64,000 nucleotides of DNA from Promethearchaeia archaeon (GTDB taxonomy: Archaea > Asgardarchaeota > Lokiarchaeia > Sigyniarchaeales > SOKP01). The stretch lies in contig JAHQWL010000070.1 of assembly GCA_029856155.1 (NCBI GenBank), positions 1 through 64,000 of the forward strand, in the 5' to 3' direction. Shown here piece by piece: positions 2,948 through 53,231 of this stretch (positions within the stretch are counted from its first letter, which is position 1; each line of letters begins with the position of its first letter). A program made the translations under genes and the position numbers. The notes under the pieces are model-generated. The model was given only the letters and a program-made list of their open reading frames with translations. It had not been told where the DNA came from and made no database searches.

Positions 2948-3119
2948 TACCTAAAATCAACTTCCTTCCAAATTATAAATAATTATAAAAAATTTTTAAG
3001 AAATTAATGAATCCAAATATTTTTTCAGTATTTTTAAAATTATGATCATCTTTCTTATTCCTTAATTGATCAAGATCTATAAAAGATTCCTCCTCTAAGC
3101 GTTGAAATAAAACTATATG

Positions 3120-26095: not shown

Positions 26096-27379
26096 ATGGA
26101 AATGAAAGAAGTTTGGTTAATAGATTATGCTAGAACTGCATTTTCTCGTTCAAGACCAAAACAACCAGAAAGAGATGTTTTTGGTGAAATTCGTGGCGAT
26201 GAACTTTTAGCTAAACTGCTAATGAAATTTTTTGATGAAAAACTTGCTGATAAAGGAATCAAAAAGGAAGAGATTGATGAGTTCACTGTAGGTACTGCAA
26301 TGGGTGTATATGAAGCCTGGACATATGGAGGACGATTACCATTATTTCTAGCAAACTTCCCTGATTTTGTTCCCGCTTTGTTCGTAGATCGTCAATGTGG
26401 TTCAGCCGGCTCGGGAATGCATGTGGGTATTATGGAAATTATGACGGGTCATAGTAAAATTTGTTTAGGAGGAGGTGTAGAACACATGACTAGAATTCCC
26501 ATGCAGAATGATTGGATTCGTCCAAACCTAGCAATGATTAACAAAAAGAGTGAATGGTATAGGCCTCAATATGATTTGATGACTACAATTAATATGATTC
26601 AAACAGCACAAAAGCTTTATGAGCAAGAAATACCTGCTTTCACAAAGGAAGATCTGGATAAATTTGGAGTCAGAGCTCATAATCTAACGGTTGAAAATCA
26701 AGAAAAGGGTTGGTTTAAGGGTGAAATCATCCCTATTGAGGGTCATGTTGAAGGAAATGTTGAAGAACCACTAATGGTAGATAAAGATATGGCAGCAAGA
26801 AAATCTACATTAGAAAGAGTTGCTCAATTACCTAGATTATCAAAACCCTTTTATTTAAAAAAGAATGGTGGTAGAGAGGGGTATGTTGAACGTGAAGGAA
26901 CAAAAGATGGAGTAATTACTCCTGGAAACTCTTCACCCCTAAATGCTGGGGCTACTACATGCTTAATTATGGAAGCAGAAGAAGCGAAAAAGAGAGGACT
27001 TGAACCATTGGCTAGAATTGTATCAATTGGTTGGGCGGCTGTAGATCCATCAGTTATGGGAAGAGGACCAGTTCCCGCCACTCAAAAAGCATTAGAATAT
27101 GCGGGAATGACTGCAGATGATATAGATTATTGGGAAATTAATGAAGCATTCACAATAGTAACTCTTAACTGTATGAAAGAATTCAATATTCCGGAAGAAA
27201 AAGTTAATGTAATGGGTGGATCTACTGCAATTGGACATCCTTTAGGTGCCACAATGATAAGACTGCCAGGTACTCTTGCTCGCATCTTAAAAGACAAAAA
27301 AGCTAAATATGGTGTTGCAAATGCTTGTTGCGGTGGTGGGCAAGGTGTTGCAACTATATTAGAAAATTTAGATGCCTGA
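26096..27379 (+). CDS. Acetyl-CoA C-acyltransferase (thiolase)
   Basis: RQCGS, NEAF, GHPLGA, CCGGGQG. Confidence 0.95.
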   Translation: MEMKEVWLIDYARTAFSRSRPKQPERDVFGEIRGDELLAKLLMKFFDEKLADKGIKKEEIDEFTVGTAMGVYEAWTYGGRLPLFLANFPDFVPALFVDRQCGSAGSGMHVGIMEIMTGHSKICLGGGVEHMTRIPMQNDWIRPNLAMINKKSEWYRPQYDLMTTINMIQTAQKLYEQEIPAFTKEDLDKFGVRAHNLTVENQEKGWFKGEIIPIEGHVEGNVEEPLMVDKDMAARKSTLERVAQLPRLSKPFYLKKNGGREGYVEREGTKDGVITPGNSSPLNAGATTCLIMEAEEAKKRGLEPLARIVSIGWAAVDPSVMGRGPVPATQKALEYAGMTADDIDYWEINEAFTIVTLNCMKEFNIPEEKVNVMGGSTAIGHPLGATMIRLPGTLARILKDKKAKYGVANACCGGGQGVATILENLDA

Positions 27380-27490: not shown

Positions 27491-27506
27491 GCGAAATATT
27501 TAAATA
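27491..27506 (+). promoter_or_regulatory. Putative BRE/TATA box for the dodecin gene
   Basis: GCGAAA followed by TTTAAATA (27499-27506); SD-like GAGTGA at 27562-27567 precedes ATG 27574. Confidence 0.45.
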
Positions 27507-27573
27507 CTAACCTTGAACATATAAAGATCACAATCTAAATAAAAAATTTTCAAAAATTTGAGAGTGATATAAT

Positions 27574-27811
27574 ATGACGGTTTATAAAAGTATTCAGTTA
27601 GTTGGAAAATTATACTAAATATCTTAGTATATCCAAAACCTCTGACAAGAATTGGGCTGATGCTGTTAAGAATTGTTATGATGAAGCTAAAAAATCTCTA
27701 CGGGGCATTAGGAATATTCAAGTAATTGAATCTGATGTTAAGGTAAAAGAAGATATTGACAAGTTGATTTACAGGGTCAGAGTCCAAGTAAATTTCCAAC
27801 TAGAAAGATAA
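27574..27811 (+). CDS. Dodecin family protein split by a 31-nt insert (exons 27574-27607 and 27639-27811)
   Basis: Joined exons give 68 aa: MTVYKSIQLVGTSDKNWADAVKNCYDEAKKSLRGIRNIQVIESDVKVKEDIDKLIYRVRVQVNFQLER, with the dodecin YKxIxLVGTS motif. Confidence 0.85.
27608..27638 (+). other. Candidate bulge-helix-bulge (BHB) intron in mRNA
   Basis: 4-bp helix TTGG/CCAA, 3-nt bulges AAA and AAC, internal 8-bp hairpin TATACTAA/TTAGTATA; canonical cleavage restores the frame. Confidence 0.75.
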
Positions 27812-28084
27812 AATTTCAAAATATTTCTTATTTTTTTCTTTTTTGTTTATTTTTTAAACAACAAGGAAATAACATAATCCCGGGGTATAATATCTTTATC
27901 CTAATTAGTATAATTAATTCAATATTAGCATTCTTAATTATTCAAAGATATAAAATTCAAATCAAACTTAGAAATGAATAATTTTTTAACTTTAATGATT
28001 AATTCATTTTTTTTTATTTTATTGCTAAAATTTTAAATATTACGAGTTCTATTTAGATTTTAATAAATTCAAGAGAGGGTAATT

Positions 28085-30220: not shown

Positions 30221-31732
30221 ATGAGTGAAAATAATTCAGAATCCATTAAAGATAATTTTATTGAACAAATTCTAAACCCTAAGAGTATTTGTGTTTTTGG
30301 TGCTAATAATAATCTCATGACAACAATGGGCTCAATGCAACTACGAAATATTATTGCTGGAGGAGGATTTGATGGAAATATATTCCCTGTGCATCCAAAA
30401 TTGGAAAAAGTTCAAGGAATTAAAGCTTATCAATCTATATTCGATATCCCAATAATACCAGATTTAGCATTTATTATATTACCAACTAGAATTGTTCCCC
30501 AAGTTATGGAAGAATGTGGTCAAAAGGGTGTAAAGCATTTAATAATTACGTCAGGTGGTTTTCGAGAGGGTGGATCCGATGGAATAGAATTATCTAAACA
30601 AATTGACGAAATAGCCAAGAAATATAATATGAGATTTATTGGTCCTAACTGTTTAGGTATATACAATGGATGGTATGGGTATCCTGATAAAAAAGACGCT
30701 TATTTTAATACCTTTTGGATCTATCTCCCACATAAAAGAGGAAATATTTCGATAATTAGTCAATCTGGTACTGTTGCGGCTCAAACTGCTTTTTATACAA
30801 ATGATCTAGGAATTAAAATTGGAAAATCTATTTCTGTAGGGAATGAGAGAAATATAGATCTAGTAGATGTATTAAATTATTTAAAAAATGATCCTCAAAC
30901 AGAAGTAATTGGACTTTATATTGAAGAAATCAAACAGGGGAAGGATTTTATTAAATTAGCGAAATCTATTACTCCTAAAAAGCCGATAGTTGCAATTTAT
31001 GCTGGAGGTACAAAAGCAGCGGCAAGATCTATAATGAGTCATACGGGATCAGTTAGTACTGATGATAAAATTTATGAAGCTGTCTTTAAAAAAACGGGTA
31101 TATTTTCTACTAATTCAATTATGGATTTTTTGTATTATCTTAGAACTTTATCATATGCACAGTCATATAACATCTTTCCAAAAGGCAACAGAATAGGAAT
31201 TATAACTGATTCCGGAGGCCCTGGTGCTATGATGACAAAAACTGCCGAATTGTATGGAATGGAAGTACCAGAATTCTCACAAGAATTGCAATCAGAATTT
31301 AAAAAGTATATTCCTAAAACAGCTAGTTCAGTGAATCCTATTGACATCACTTTTCACGAGAATTTTATGAATATGTTTATAAAGTTCCCAAAATTATTGA
31401 TGAAATCCCGCGAAGTTGATGTAATTGTTGTCTTTGGTGTTTATGATTTTGATGATATAATGAATGTTATTGAAAAATCTGGGATGAAACTTGATGAAGA
31501 CATGAAAAATATGAGAGATGTATTTGAAAAGATGGTTCTAGAGTCTATAAAAAGCTTAATGAAGAAACATTCAATACCTGTGTTTTTTGCTGGACCATAT
31601 CCTTATAGATATTCCTGGATGCAAAAATTTGTAGAACATGATATCCCTATTTTTAGTATGTGGGATGATATAACTAAATGCCTTAACATTTTATGTCGTT
31701 ATGCCGACTATCGGAACAAATTTTCGTGTTAA
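30221..31732 (+). CDS. ADP-forming acyl-CoA synthetase alpha subunit (CoA-binding), paralog 1
   Basis: GGFRE, IGPNCLG, SQSG, SHTGS phospho-His, NPID. Confidence 0.9.
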   Translation: MSENNSESIKDNFIEQILNPKSICVFGANNNLMTTMGSMQLRNIIAGGGFDGNIFPVHPKLEKVQGIKAYQSIFDIPIIPDLAFIILPTRIVPQVMEECGQKGVKHLIITSGGFREGGSDGIELSKQIDEIAKKYNMRFIGPNCLGIYNGWYGYPDKKDAYFNTFWIYLPHKRGNISIISQSGTVAAQTAFYTNDLGIKIGKSISVGNERNIDLVDVLNYLKNDPQTEVIGLYIEEIKQGKDFIKLAKSITPKKPIVAIYAGGTKAAARSIMSHTGSVSTDDKIYEAVFKKTGIFSTNSIMDFLYYLRTLSYAQSYNIFPKGNRIGIITDSGGPGAMMTKTAELYGMEVPEFSQELQSEFKKYIPKTASSVNPIDITFHENFMNMFIKFPKLLMKSREVDVIVVFGVYDFDDIMNVIEKSGMKLDEDMKNMRDVFEKMVLESIKSLMKKHSIPVFFAGPYPYRYSWMQKFVEHDIPIFSMWDDITKCLNILCRYADYRNKFSC

Positions 31733-31836: not shown

Positions 31837-33348
31837 TTGACTGAAATCAATAGAAACATCTCAAAAAATCATTTTCTTCATCGTTTTTTAAATCCAGAGA
31901 GTATTGCTGTTTTTGGAGCATCTAATTCCTTTTTAGATAATATGGGTGCTATGATGCTACGAAATATTATATTTGGTGGATTTCCTAAAGAAAAGATTTA
32001 TCCTATACATCCTAAATTGGAGAATATTCAGGGTTTAAAGGCCTATAAATCAATATTAGACCTTTCAGAAACTCCAGATTTGGCTTTTATCATTTTAAGA
32101 CCCAATCATGTTCCAAAAGTAATGGAAGAATGTGGAAAAAAAGGAATAAAACGAGTAATTATAGTATCAGGAGGATTTCGAGAATTTGGTTCAGATGGAA
32201 TTCAACTTTCTAATAAAATTCTCGAGATAACTAGAAAATATGATATTAGATTTATTGGTCCAAACTGTTTGGGAGTTTATAACGCATTTTTTAATTATCC
32301 TGAATTTAGAGATATATGTTTGAATACAATGTGGATATATGAGACTCCTCACCGAGGTAATATTTCTATTATTGCTCATTCAGGTACAGTTGCATCTCAT
32401 GTATTTTGGTATTGTAACAGGATTGGAGTAAAAATAGGGAAATCTCTTTCTATTGGGAATGAAGAAAACATAGATTTAGTTGATTTTTTAGATTATCTTA
32501 AAGATGATCCAGAGACAGATGTTATTGGCTTATATATTGAAGAAGTAAAGAAGGGAAAAGAATTTATAAATATAGTAAAGAAAATTACGCCTAAAAAACC
32601 GATTGTCGCGATTTATGCTGGAGGAACAGCAGCAGCTTCACGTTCAATCATGGGACATACAGGCTCAATTGCGGGAGATAATAAAATTTTTGAAGCTGTG
32701 TTTAAAGAAACAGGTATAATTTCTACTGATTCAATTAAAGAATTTTTTTATTACTTAAGGGTATTTTCACATAATATTATTCCAAAAGGTAATAGATTAG
32801 GAATAATAACAGATTCAGGAGGATGTGGTGCGATGATGGCAAAGGTTGCTGAGAAAATAGGTTTGATGGTACCTGAATTTTCAGATGAATTAAAAGGTAA
32901 ATTAAGACCGTATGTCCCACCTGTAGCAAATATTGATAATCCTTTAGATTTAACTTTTCAATTCAATCAATACAATCTTTATATAAAAATTCCAAAAGCT
33001 ATGATTAATTCTGGTGAAGTTGATGGAATAATTATCTATGCTGCATTTGGTTTTGAAGAAATTTTAAATATAATTAAAGCCTCAGGCGGTAAAAGTTATG
33101 AAGAATTTGAGATATCTAATGATATGATGAAAGGTTTATATTTAAAACCAATTCAAAGGCTAGTAAAGAAGAAAGGAGTTCCTGTTTTTTATATTGGTCC
33201 ACAAGGGTATTCTAATCCATGGGTTCGAGAATTCATCAAATCAAATATTCCTATTTTTGATTTATGGGATATGCCCGTTAAATGCTTCTCAGTATTGGCA
33301 AAATATTCTGAATATCGTAAAAATTTAAATCCTAAATTTAAAAATTGA
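31837..33348 (+). CDS. ADP-forming acyl-CoA synthetase alpha subunit, paralog 2
   Basis: GGFRE, IGPNCLG, GHTGS, NPLD; colinear with paralog 1. Confidence 0.9.
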   Translation: MTEINRNISKNHFLHRFLNPESIAVFGASNSFLDNMGAMMLRNIIFGGFPKEKIYPIHPKLENIQGLKAYKSILDLSETPDLAFIILRPNHVPKVMEECGKKGIKRVIIVSGGFREFGSDGIQLSNKILEITRKYDIRFIGPNCLGVYNAFFNYPEFRDICLNTMWIYETPHRGNISIIAHSGTVASHVFWYCNRIGVKIGKSLSIGNEENIDLVDFLDYLKDDPETDVIGLYIEEVKKGKEFINIVKKITPKKPIVAIYAGGTAAASRSIMGHTGSIAGDNKIFEAVFKETGIISTDSIKEFFYYLRVFSHNIIPKGNRLGIITDSGGCGAMMAKVAEKIGLMVPEFSDELKGKLRPYVPPVANIDNPLDLTFQFNQYNLYIKIPKAMINSGEVDGIIIYAAFGFEEILNIIKASGGKSYEEFEISNDMMKGLYLKPIQRLVKKKGVPVFYIGPQGYSNPWVREFIKSNIPIFDLWDMPVKCFSVLAKYSEYRKNLNPKFKN

Positions 33349-39294: not shown

Positions 39295-40014
39295 TTGTTT
39301 AATCTCTTTAAATATCTAATGAAATTTGATTTTTATTTATTTGATTTAGATGGAACTTTGCTCCATCTTGGTAATATCGGAACTTATGTAGATCAGATAT
39401 TAATAGAAACCTTTACAAGATTGGGAGCCACTAATCCTCCAAAAAAGAATGAAAAATATAAACTATGGTCTCCAGAAGAAGACTTCTTTGAAGTCTTAAA
39501 AGAATGGGGTGTCAAGAATCCTCAGAATTTTTGGAAGGTTTTTGATGAGATAGATTTTAATTTAAGAAAAAAGCTAATAGAAAAGAGTCAGGTTTTCCTA
39601 TATAAAGATGTTTATAATATATTAGAAAGAATTCATCATCACAAAAATAATAAAAAACTCGCAATAGTTTCAAACACAGCATATTATATAGTTGAGTTTA
39701 TATTGAAAAAATTTAATATCACTAGATTTTTTCATGAAACTTTTAGTTTAGGGTATTATACTAATGATCAAGAACTAGCCAAACCGTCTCCAAAAGGCGT
39801 TCTCACGATATTGGATAAATTTAATTATGATCCAAAAGAATCAAAAGCTCTTTTCGTTGGAGACTCTAAATTTGATATTATTGCTGCTAAAAAAGCTGAC
39901 ATTTATGCTTGTTTAATAAGAAGGGAAATAAATACACATAATAAAAATTATAATAAATGGGATATTCAGCCAGATTTCGTCATAGAAGGGTTGGATGAAC
40001 TACTTCATTTGTAA
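39295..40014 (+). CDS. HAD superfamily hydrolase (phosphoglycolate-phosphatase-like)
   Basis: FDLDGTL, VSN, KPSP, VGDSKFDI. Confidence 0.92.
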   Translation: MFNLFKYLMKFDFYLFDLDGTLLHLGNIGTYVDQILIETFTRLGATNPPKKNEKYKLWSPEEDFFEVLKEWGVKNPQNFWKVFDEIDFNLRKKLIEKSQVFLYKDVYNILERIHHHKNNKKLAIVSNTAYYIVEFILKKFNITRFFHETFSLGYYTNDQELAKPSPKGVLTILDKFNYDPKESKALFVGDSKFDIIAAKKADIYACLIRREINTHNKNYNKWDIQPDFVIEGLDELLHL

Positions 40015-51998: not shown

Positions 51999-53231
51999 AT
52001 GAATGATTCAAAATATATCTATCTTGATAATGCTGCGACGACTCCAATGGATCCTAGGGTTATTGAAGAGGTTACTAAACACTTTAGGGAGACTTATGGA
52101 AATTCTTCGAGCTTGCACTCAGTTGGGCAAAAAGCAGGCCAGGTATTAAATAAATCTCGTGAAATGATTGCAACATTAATTAATGCGAATAGAGATGATA
52201 TTTTTTTCACTTCTTCTGGAACTGAGGCAGATAACATTGCTATTTTTGGTGTTGCTTCTAAAAATAAAGAAAGGGGTAACCATATTATTATGAGTTCAAT
52301 TGAACACCATGCGGTAGAAAATCCTTATAAAGAATTAGAAAAAAGAGGGTTTAAGGTTACTTTCTTACCAGTTGATAATTATGGTCTTATTAATATTAAA
52401 GATTTAGAAAATGCAATAACGAAAAAGACAATCTTAATTAGCATAATGTTTGCTAACAATGAAATTGGTACAATTGAGCCAATTAAAGAAATTGGAACAA
52501 TAGCCAAAACTCATGATGTTATTTTTCATACAGATGCAGTGCAAGCTTTTGGGAAAGTTCCAATTGATGTAGATGATATGAAAATTGATTTATTATCTGC
52601 TGCTGCTCATAAGCTTTATGGTCCGAAAGGAGTAGGTATGTTATATATTCGAAATAAGGGAGTAAGAGAGGGTTGGGGTAAATTTATTGACCCTATTATG
52701 TATGGTGGAGGACATGAAAGGGATATGAGACCAAGTACCGTCAATGTACCGGGAATTGCAGGTTTTGCAAAAGCTGTAGAAATCGCAAAGGAAGAAATGG
52801 AAAAAGAGATGGAAAGACATATTAGATTAAGGGATAAAATTATAAATTTTGCGATTACAAATATAGAAGACTGTTATTTAAACGGACATCCTACTCAAAG
52901 ACTGCCAAATAATGTAAATTTAGGTTTTAAATACATAGAAGGAGAGTCAATTGTATTAGATTTGGATGGAGAAGGAATTGCATCCTCTACTGGCTCAGCA
53001 TGTTCCTCAAAATCATTAGATCCTAGTCATGTACTGCTAGCTATAGGGTTAAAACCTGAGGACGCTCATGGCTCATTGAGAATTTCAATAGGTAGATTTA
53101 CAACCGAGGAAGATATTGATTATTTCCTTGAAAAATTACCCTATGTTATAGAGAGACTTAGAAAAATATCCCCTCTTAAAAAAGGAGTTAAATATATGTC
53201 TAATGAAACAGTTGTAAATCATCATCATTAA
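51999..53231 (+). CDS. iscS: Cysteine desulfurase, group I (IscS/NifS)
   Basis: YLDNAATTP, HTDAVQ, HKLYGPKG, STGSACSS. Confidence 0.95.
   Translation: MNDSKYIYLDNAATTPMDPRVIEEVTKHFRETYGNSSSLHSVGQKAGQVLNKSREMIATLINANRDDIFFTSSGTEADNIAIFGVASKNKERGNHIIMSSIEHHAVENPYKELEKRGFKVTFLPVDNYGLINIKDLENAITKKTILISIMFANNEIGTIEPIKEIGTIAKTHDVIFHTDAVQAFGKVPIDVDDMKIDLLSAAAHKLYGPKGVGMLYIRNKGVREGWGKFIDPIMYGGGHERDMRPSTVNVPGIAGFAKAVEIAKEEMEKEMERHIRLRDKIINFAITNIEDCYLNGHPTQRLPNNVNLGFKYIEGESIVLDLDGEGIASSTGSACSSKSLDPSHVLLAIGLKPEDAHGSLRISIGRFTTEEDIDYFLEKLPYVIERLRKISPLKKGVKYMSNETVVNHHH

What the first reader, a model, noticed from the sequence alone, without database searches (positions are those of the whole stretch)
27574..27811. 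Candidate BHB (tRNA-endonuclease-type) intron inside an Asgard protein-coding gene (dodecin)
Seen: ATG 27574 (SD-like GAGTGA 6 nt upstream) reads MTVYKSIQLVG, then KLY and a stop. The rest of the dodecin (TSDKNWADAV...) resumes out of frame 31 nt later. The junctions fold into a BHB: central 4-bp helix T27602TGG/C27633CAA; 5' bulge AAA (27606-08); 3' bulge AAC (27637-39); inner stem A27609:T27632 plus TATACTAA(27611-18)/TTAGTATA(27624-31) around a 5-nt loop; outer exon-exon pairs G27601:C27640, A27600:T27641 and TCAG(27594-97)/CTGA(27642-45). Established: archaeal splicing endonuclease cuts after the 2nd nucleotide of each bulge. Applying that rule removes exactly 27608-27638 and yields GTT GGA ACC TCT (V-G-T-S), a 68-aa dodecin with the conserved YKxIxLVGTS motif. 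BHB introns are known from tRNA and rRNA, and in mRNA mainly from crenarchaeal cbf5. Inference: this lineage splices mRNA with EndA/RtcB, possibly as a regulatory switch (conceptually like non-spliceosomal HAC1/XBP1 splicing). More such introns may be hidden genome-wide as apparent frameshifts.
Basis: partly seen in the sequence, partly recalled or inferred. Interest (0 to 1): 0.95.

Follow-up and report, generated by a model that had tools for sequence, protein, structure and literature searches.

The report
tRNA-type mini-intron in Asgard dodecin gene
A 31-base hairpin breaks the dodecin gene of a Loki-type Asgard archaeon and very probably has to be cut out of the messenger RNA by the tRNA-splicing enzymes; relatives carry different such inserts at six places in this tiny gene, and this genome has at least a dozen more, although published work documents this inside an archaeal coding sequence for one gene only (cbf5).

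Summary
Confirmed. Removing 27608-27638 gives a 68-aa dodecin 88-97% identical to uninterrupted orthologs of the same genus (Promethearchaeota/Lokiarchaeia). Two other assemblies carry the same insert, so it is not an assembly error. The junction fits the bulge-helix-bulge (BHB) cut rule. In relatives dodecin is a hot spot: 21 distinct 29-38 nt inserts at six sites, 18 passing a BHB test (0.35 expected from shuffles, somewhat more allowing for boundary ambiguity). Two have the window's site and length but different stems. Exons stay under purifying selection. A motif-free comparison of two genomes found 17 frame-breaking 28-33 nt BHB-like inserts (CdhA, FwdB, TFS, uL11, NAD synthase, UppS, histone), while 1 of 43 ordinary in-frame indels passed. 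Two EndA paralogs and RtcB are present. Carriers of the window's site do not form one clade, which points to repeated gain or loss and argues against a conserved regulatory switch. No RNA evidence could be obtained. This scan has noted the same class before on other DNA (54 notes, at least 36 genomes, including dodecin). In print only cbf5 and a Haloferax 5' UTR are known.

The parts
27491..27506 (+). BRE/TATA-like promoter element (GCGAAA, TTTAAATA) upstream of dodecin; inferred
   Evidence: Sequence; a GAAAT-TTTAAATA-like box is also upstream of dodecin in L031, L032, L033. Not tested as a promoter.
27562..27567 (+). SD-like GAGTGA, 6 nt before the ATG
   Evidence: relatives show GTGA at the same place
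27574..27607 (+). Dodecin exon 1 (codons 1-11 plus first base of Thr12)
   Evidence: matches the conserved N-terminus of intronless orthologs
27602..27605 (+). 5' (exon) strand of the 4-bp central helix, TTGG
   Evidence: identical in all three independent site-34 introns, but in 13 of 96 intronless alleles
27606..27608 (+). 5' bulge AAA; predicted cut after 27607
27608..27638 (+). 31-nt BHB intron; causes a frameshift and an in-frame TAA at 27616-27618 if kept
27609..27632 (+). Intron hairpin: 9 pairs with one bulged base, 5-nt loop
27633..27636 (+). 3' (intron) strand of the central helix, CCAA
27637..27639 (+). 3' bulge AAC; predicted cut after 27638
27639..27811 (+). Dodecin exon 2 (Pfam PF07311) to the stop codon
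   Evidence: E 9.3e-12, profile positions 10-64
27500..27749 (.). Tract that is far more divergent from the sister species G005 (intronless) than its flanks: a probable recombination tract over the intron site
   Evidence: about 96% identity upstream and at 27750-27849, about 65-85% per 50-nt bin inside
26096..27379 (+). Thiolase gene, conserved upstream neighbour (context only)

Best explanation
The 31-nt insert is an archaeal BHB intron in an mRNA. After transcription the exon TTGG pairs with the intron CCAA. The two-subunit tRNA splicing endonuclease cuts after the second base of each 3-nt bulge (27607/08 and 27638/39), and RtcB joins the exons, giving an ordinary 68-aa dodecin message; unspliced RNA yields only a 14-aa stub. 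It is one of a population of roughly 30-nt hairpin introns that come and go in coding genes of this lineage. They are tolerated because the housekeeping splicing system removes them, so they behave as near-neutral or selfish passengers. Shown here: the insert, its geometry, recurrence with unrelated stems, purifying selection on exons, presence of the enzymes. Inferred: cleavage, ligation, translation, and the route of gain or loss.
For: (1) The homology-defined boundary coincides with the BHB cut. (2) 21 distinct dodecin inserts at CDS nt 34, 47, 65, 143, 156, 168; all leave a stop if unspliced; 18 pass the BHB test against 0.35 expected from shuffles, and two of the three failures have a 4/4 helix with a 4-nt bulge; all 21 have A as the first base of the 3' bulge. 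(3) L259 and L260 have 31-nt inserts at the window's site with different stems and the same helix. (4) Exons of intron-bearing alleles: pS 0.37-0.82 against pN 0.025-0.092, including within the group that shares the site-65 intron. (5) Motif-free census over about 2,280 gene pairs: 14 of 20 frame-breaking interior inserts pass a strict test against 1 of 43 in-frame indels (expected 0.8 shuffled, 2.5 moved), and the helix register peaks at the canonical offset, 13 inserts. (6) Hosts include genes with no second close copy in their assembly (CdhA with two inserts, FwdB, TFS, NAD synthase, UppS) and uL11; removal restores full-length frames with pN well below pS. (7) Two EndA paralogs (the best PDB matches of one are crenarchaeal catalytic subunits) and RtcB. 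(8) Precedent: cbf5 pre-mRNA is cut by EndA at a BHB-like motif (PMC2738675).
Against: The minimum-energy fold prefers a slipped register and outer helices are weak. Dodecin is dispensable in some genomes (no match in 9 of 54, several incomplete), so this gene alone does not prove a need for splicing. The CaiB gene with two inserts also has a separate 1-nt deletion. Sites were chosen with BHB as the tie-break among 1-14 near-equal boundaries, so its null is too low by a few-fold.
Confidence: 0.88

Rival explanations
1. The inserts are mutational hairpin insertions that knock genes out, so this dodecin is a recent pseudogene.
For: The window's intron is young or patchy: its closest relatives are intronless. 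One two-intron gene (CaiB) has an extra 1-nt deletion. Dodecin is not found in some relatives.
Against: The site-65 intron is shared by alleles with pS 0.37-0.58 and pN 0.025-0.087. Inserts sit in uL11, TFS, CdhA, FwdB, NAD synthase and UppS. Random hairpins would not give a fixed 4-bp/3-nt register whose cut restores the frame.
Confidence: 0.05
2. The intron is spliced but serves as a conserved regulatory switch for dodecin, like HAC1/XBP1.
For: Unspliced RNA is non-productive, so output depends on EndA activity. Dodecin carries introns unusually often (11 of 45 genus genomes with a match are interrupted or truncated).
Against: 34 of 45 are intronless, positions differ between lineages, and one clade is rejected for sites 34, 143 and 168 (p-AU 4e-8, 2e-10, 0.006). 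Intron sequences are unrelated.
Confidence: 0.1
3. The ribosome skips the insert (translational bypassing or frameshifting) and the RNA is never cut.
For: The inserts are short hairpins in coding sequence, like known bypass elements (from memory: T4 gene 60, fungal mitochondrial byps).
Against: Bypassing needs matched take-off and landing codons. Direct repeats at the junctions are only 0-2 nt and junctions fall in all three phases. The conserved exon-intron helix would be unexplained.
Confidence: 0.02
4. The protein is made from TTG 27602 with a new N-terminus, as gene callers annotate it.
For: A 69-aa open frame exists and JGI calls it in L270.
Against: It loses the N-terminal strand conserved in all 15 orthologs aligned. 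The original ATG, SD and first 11 codons remain intact. It cannot explain inserts at the five other sites.
Confidence: 0.02
5. Assembly or sequencing artefact.
For: The genome is an assembly with 5.7% estimated contamination.
Against: The identical insert is in a JGI and an ENA assembly; different inserts at the same site occur in other samples.
Confidence: 0.01

Closest known systems
cbf5 pre-mRNA intron of Desulfurococcales and Sulfolobales (Watanabe 2002; Yokobori 2009, PMC2738675)
   Same: Short intron inside an archaeal coding sequence, BHB-like ends, cut between the second and third bulge bases, host with a two-subunit EndA.
   Different: cbf5 is one ancient intron at one position, inherited and sometimes lost, with splicing shown by cDNA. 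Here many genes, six positions in one 204-nt gene, up to two per gene, a tight 28-33 nt size class, patchy and recurrent, in Asgard archaea; splicing not shown here.
HVO_1309 5' UTR BHB intron of Haloferax volcanii (PMC7714728)
   Same: An mRNA substrate of the tRNA splicing endonuclease.
   Different: It lies in the untranslated leader and does not break a reading frame.
Archaeal tRNA introns, including the repeatedly gained Asgard tRNA introns (bioRxiv 10.64898/2026.10.13.758758; PMC11291895)
   Same: Same motif and enzymes; repeated recent gains at sites that allow a BHB; tRNA introns of 31-33 nt are called in this genome.
   Different: The host RNA is an mRNA. That preprint treats tRNA genes only (no occurrence of 'mRNA'), and its intron-rich families are other Asgard classes.
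IRE1/RtcB splicing of HAC1/XBP1 (PMC13149111)
   Same: Spliceosome-independent cutting and ligation of an mRNA that changes the reading frame.
   Different: Different nuclease and motif, one conserved regulated target; no evidence here for regulation.

Membership tests
Archaeal BHB (EndA/RtcB) introns | 4-bp helix between the 5' exon end and the intron 3' end, flanked by two 3-nt bulges | tested here: met
   TTGG/CCAA with AAA and AAC; 18 of 21 dodecin inserts have a 4/4 helix
Archaeal BHB (EndA/RtcB) introns | Cut after the second base of each bulge gives the functional mature sequence | tested here: met
   the rule picks one of three equivalent optimal deletions; register peak at the canonical offset
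Archaeal BHB (EndA/RtcB) introns | Intron-side helix next to the 5' bulge | tested here: met
   9 pairs in the window; 6-10 in most others, with unrelated sequences at one site
Archaeal BHB (EndA/RtcB) introns | Exon-exon outer helix (strict hBHBh' form) | tested here: inconclusive
   Only 1-2 contiguous pairs; the fold pairs 27594-97 with 27642-45 across an internal loop. Relaxed motifs are usual in cbf5 introns.
Archaeal BHB (EndA/RtcB) introns | Host encodes the splicing endonuclease and a ligase | tested here: met
   two PF01974 genes (198 and 202 aa), one PF01139 gene
Archaeal BHB (EndA/RtcB) introns | Excision from RNA in vivo (spliced product, often a circular intron) | not tested
Archaeal BHB (EndA/RtcB) introns | Cleavage by EndA in vitro | not testable with these tools
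   bench experiment
Translational bypass elements | Matched take-off and landing codons in phase 0 | tested here: not met
   direct repeats of 0-2 nt, phases 0, 1 and 2
MITE/IS-type mobile DNA | Target-site duplication and dispersed near-identical copies | tested here: not met
   0-2 nt repeats; no full-length second copy of any intron in G000 or the G006 tiles
Homing-endonuclease-driven introns | Endonuclease gene inside or beside the intron | tested here: inconclusive
   31 nt cannot code one; flanking ORFs of intron-bearing dodecin loci look like thiolase, TPR and the same neighbours as in the window by eye; no family scan, and a distant gene is not excluded

The most novel reading that the evidence does not exclude
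Loki-type Asgard archaea carry a mobile population of about 30-nt mRNA introns that is still spreading: it repeatedly colonises the same few short exon targets (for example TTGG-AA, GGTT-AA) in unrelated lineages, moves or is erased with recombined DNA tracts, and makes tRNA-type splicing a routine step for dozens of mRNAs, including essential ones, in close prokaryotic relatives of eukaryotes.
Probability: 0.5. Interest if true: 0.92.

Novelty: new variant of a known kind. Interest (0 to 1): 0.8.

Why it matters
Papers I could search describe EndA splicing inside an archaeal coding sequence for a single gene. If these inserts are spliced, Asgard archaea splice many mRNAs without a spliceosome, many apparent frameshifts and truncated genes in their annotations are wrong, and translation must wait for splicing in a cell with no nucleus. 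Dodecin is a compact natural experiment: six intron positions in 204 nt, with gains or losses between sister species, makes the open question of how archaeal introns arrive testable on one small gene.

Tried and rejected
Motif-only genome scans did not separate signal from background (2071 against 2042 for a shifted control, timed out; 100 against 80 and 93), so the census was rebuilt on homology first. The first census missed frameshifting inserts, including the dodecin control, and was fixed. Relaxed ARAGORN gave noise, so tRNA and mRNA introns were not compared systematically. A mis-indexed alignment was redone. Pair counting on three site-34 sequences is too thin for covariation. No second copy of any intron was found. 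Several motif candidates proved to be gene junctions. Tocchini-Valentini 2011 was not held. Four literature searches found no report of Asgard mRNA introns; most subscription papers are not searched. Census inserts at C44, C50, C64, C102 (19 nt) and G006 (20, 82 nt) were rejected as terminal misalignments without BHB.

Full report
Observation. The sequence is as described. From ATG 27574 the frame stops at TAA 27616-18. The downstream frame is a dodecin from profile position 10 on (PF07311, E 9e-12). Removing 31 nt gives a 68-aa protein 88-97% identical to uninterrupted dodecins of the same genus. Of all deletions of 20-44 nt, three sequence-equivalent 31-nt ones are best, and the BHB rule selects 27608-27638 among them. 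The hairpin is stronger than shuffles (z -4.25), though the minimum-energy fold slips the register by one base and the outer exon helix is weak. A JGI and an ENA contig carry the identical insert, so it is not an assembly error. Orthologs are named Promethearchaeota/Lokiarchaeota by NCBI. The alternative TTG-27602 product replaces the N-terminal strand conserved in 15 orthologs.

Dodecin across relatives. In the genus, 45 of 54 genomes have a dodecin match: 34 full-length and 11 interrupted or truncated. The four I could read (G000, G004, G013, G016) have inserts of 30-32 nt at four different codons. A metagenome scan added more. In all there are 21 distinct inserts of 29-38 nt at CDS positions 34, 47, 65, 143, 156 and 168; two alleles carry two. 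All leave a stop if kept. 18 pass a BHB test (4/4 helix and a stem of at least 4, or 3/4 and at least 5) against 0.35 expected from shuffling; boundary ambiguity would raise that null a few-fold, which does not change the result. At the window's site, L259 and L260 have 31-nt inserts with different stems but the same exon helix strand, TTGG, which only 13 of 96 intronless alleles have. Exons of intron-bearing alleles show pS of 0.4-0.8 and pN below 0.1, also among the alleles that share the site-65 intron, so these are not decaying genes.

History. On a tree of the thiolase 3' end plus spliced dodecin (66 rows, introns excluded), the window sits inside a supported 10-row group that is otherwise intronless. 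One clade is rejected for carriers of sites 34, 143 and 168, and not rejected for site 65. The tree is dominated by thiolase, and the locus is mosaic: against the sister species G005 identity is about 96% up to 27499 and at 27750-27849 but much lower over 27500-27749, which covers the intron site. G005's 5' part is 92% like alleles of another clade, while the window's has no match above 85%. That fits G005 importing an intronless tract, but direction is not proven. Repeated gain, lateral spread and repeated loss therefore cannot be fully separated; all three contradict a conserved regulatory switch.

Genome-wide. I aligned proteins from 2.8 of 3.3 Mb of G006 to G000 and back, found insertions by homology alone, and only then tested shape. 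Of 20 frame-breaking interior inserts 14 pass the strict test, against 1 of 43 in-frame indels; 0.8 are expected for shuffled and 2.5 for relocated inserts; the helix register peaks at the canonical offset. Two more 29-31 nt inserts (FwdB, second CaiB) narrowly miss on stem length, and a 28-nt insert in uL11 was excluded by my terminal filter but has a 4/4 helix. That gives 12 in G000 (dodecin, CdhA twice, FwdB, CaiB-family twice, acyl-CoA dehydrogenase, AIR-synthase-like, nucleoside-phosphorylase family, TFS, Roadblock, a small Cys/His protein) and 5 in G006 (uL11, NAD synthase, UppS, histone, a molybdopterin-binding-domain gene). Removal restores full-length frames with pN well below pS, except CaiB, which has a further 1-nt deletion, and the Roadblock gene, whose match differs in length. 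These are lower bounds: inserts shared by both genomes are invisible to the method, and at least two such look real (an RNase HII-like DEAGR motif at C83 and a GHMP-kinase-like motif at C29, named from memory of the motifs). Junction repeats are 0-2 nt and all phases occur, which excludes ribosomal hopping and target-site duplication.

Machinery and mechanism. G000 has two EndA-family genes and RtcB; one paralog best matches crenarchaeal catalytic subunits, consistent with the two-subunit type that accepts relaxed motifs (PMC2738675; Asgard survey). The likely path is transcription, folding, two EndA cuts, RtcB ligation and translation of a normal dodecin. The enzymatic steps are inferred from established EndA chemistry, not observed. 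RNA evidence could not be obtained.

Comparison and novelty. It works like, and by every feature I could test belongs to, the archaeal BHB introns; in vivo excision is untested. Published mRNA cases are cbf5 and a Haloferax 5' UTR. A 2026 preprint covers Asgard tRNA introns only, and searches found no paper on Asgard mRNA introns. Earlier notes of this scan report the same class in at least 36 genomes, including dodecin and other genes of this genome; I treat them as leads, not support.

Verdict. A real BHB intron, very probably spliced (0.88); a new variant of a known kind; interest 0.8.

Noticed in passing
G000:C86 minus strand 80397-80366 and 80345-80315: Two BHB inserts (32 and 31 nt) 20 nt apart in the only cdhA gene, around the first Cys motif.
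   Followed up: yes
G000:C102 plus strand 39505-39537, 39606-39636, about 39860: CaiB-family CoA-transferase with two BHB-like inserts and a separate 1-nt deletion: pseudogene or assembly error.
   Followed up: partly
G000:C58 about 2994-3022 and C40 about 2045-2074: FwdB and acyl-CoA dehydrogenase inserts both have a G.A mismatch at the outermost pair of the central helix, suggesting a tolerated variant.
   Followed up: partly
G000:C83 92757-92786, C29 23943-23973, C98 52575-52604, C1 10074-10102: Further BHB candidates; the first three appear shared with G006 (older introns), the last resembles a proteasome alpha subunit junction.
   Followed up: partly
L146:9379-9406, L119:19625-19654, L165:5072-5101, L151:3002-3033, L160:10049-10020: G006 inserts in uL11, NAD synthase, UppS, a histone and a molybdopterin-binding-domain gene; the G000 orthologs are intronless.
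   Followed up: yes
introns listed: Many hairpins close a 5-nt loop of the form A-x-x-T-C (ATATC, ATTTC, AATTC, ATCTC, AACTC), and lengths cluster at 30-32 nt; not tested statistically.
   Followed up: no
L033 (G013 dodecin start): The intron-bearing dodecin begins with ATA instead of ATG: a rare start, an error, or decay.
   Followed up: no
L222, L254 (about 1100-1750): Tandem dodecin duplication 416-425 nt apart; in L254 one copy has a premature stop.
   Followed up: no
window 52656-52676 (minus strand): 21-nt in-frame difference against G006 without BHB geometry; an ordinary indel.
   Followed up: partly
window 30221-31732 and 31837-33348: Two tandem 503-aa paralogs that look like acyl-CoA synthetase (NDP-forming) subunits by sequence; not scanned.
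   Followed up: no
G000 whole genome: ARAGORN finds only 23 tRNA genes, several with introns of 9-79 nt, so further intron-rich tRNAs are probably missed; a tRNA-Sec is present.
   Followed up: no
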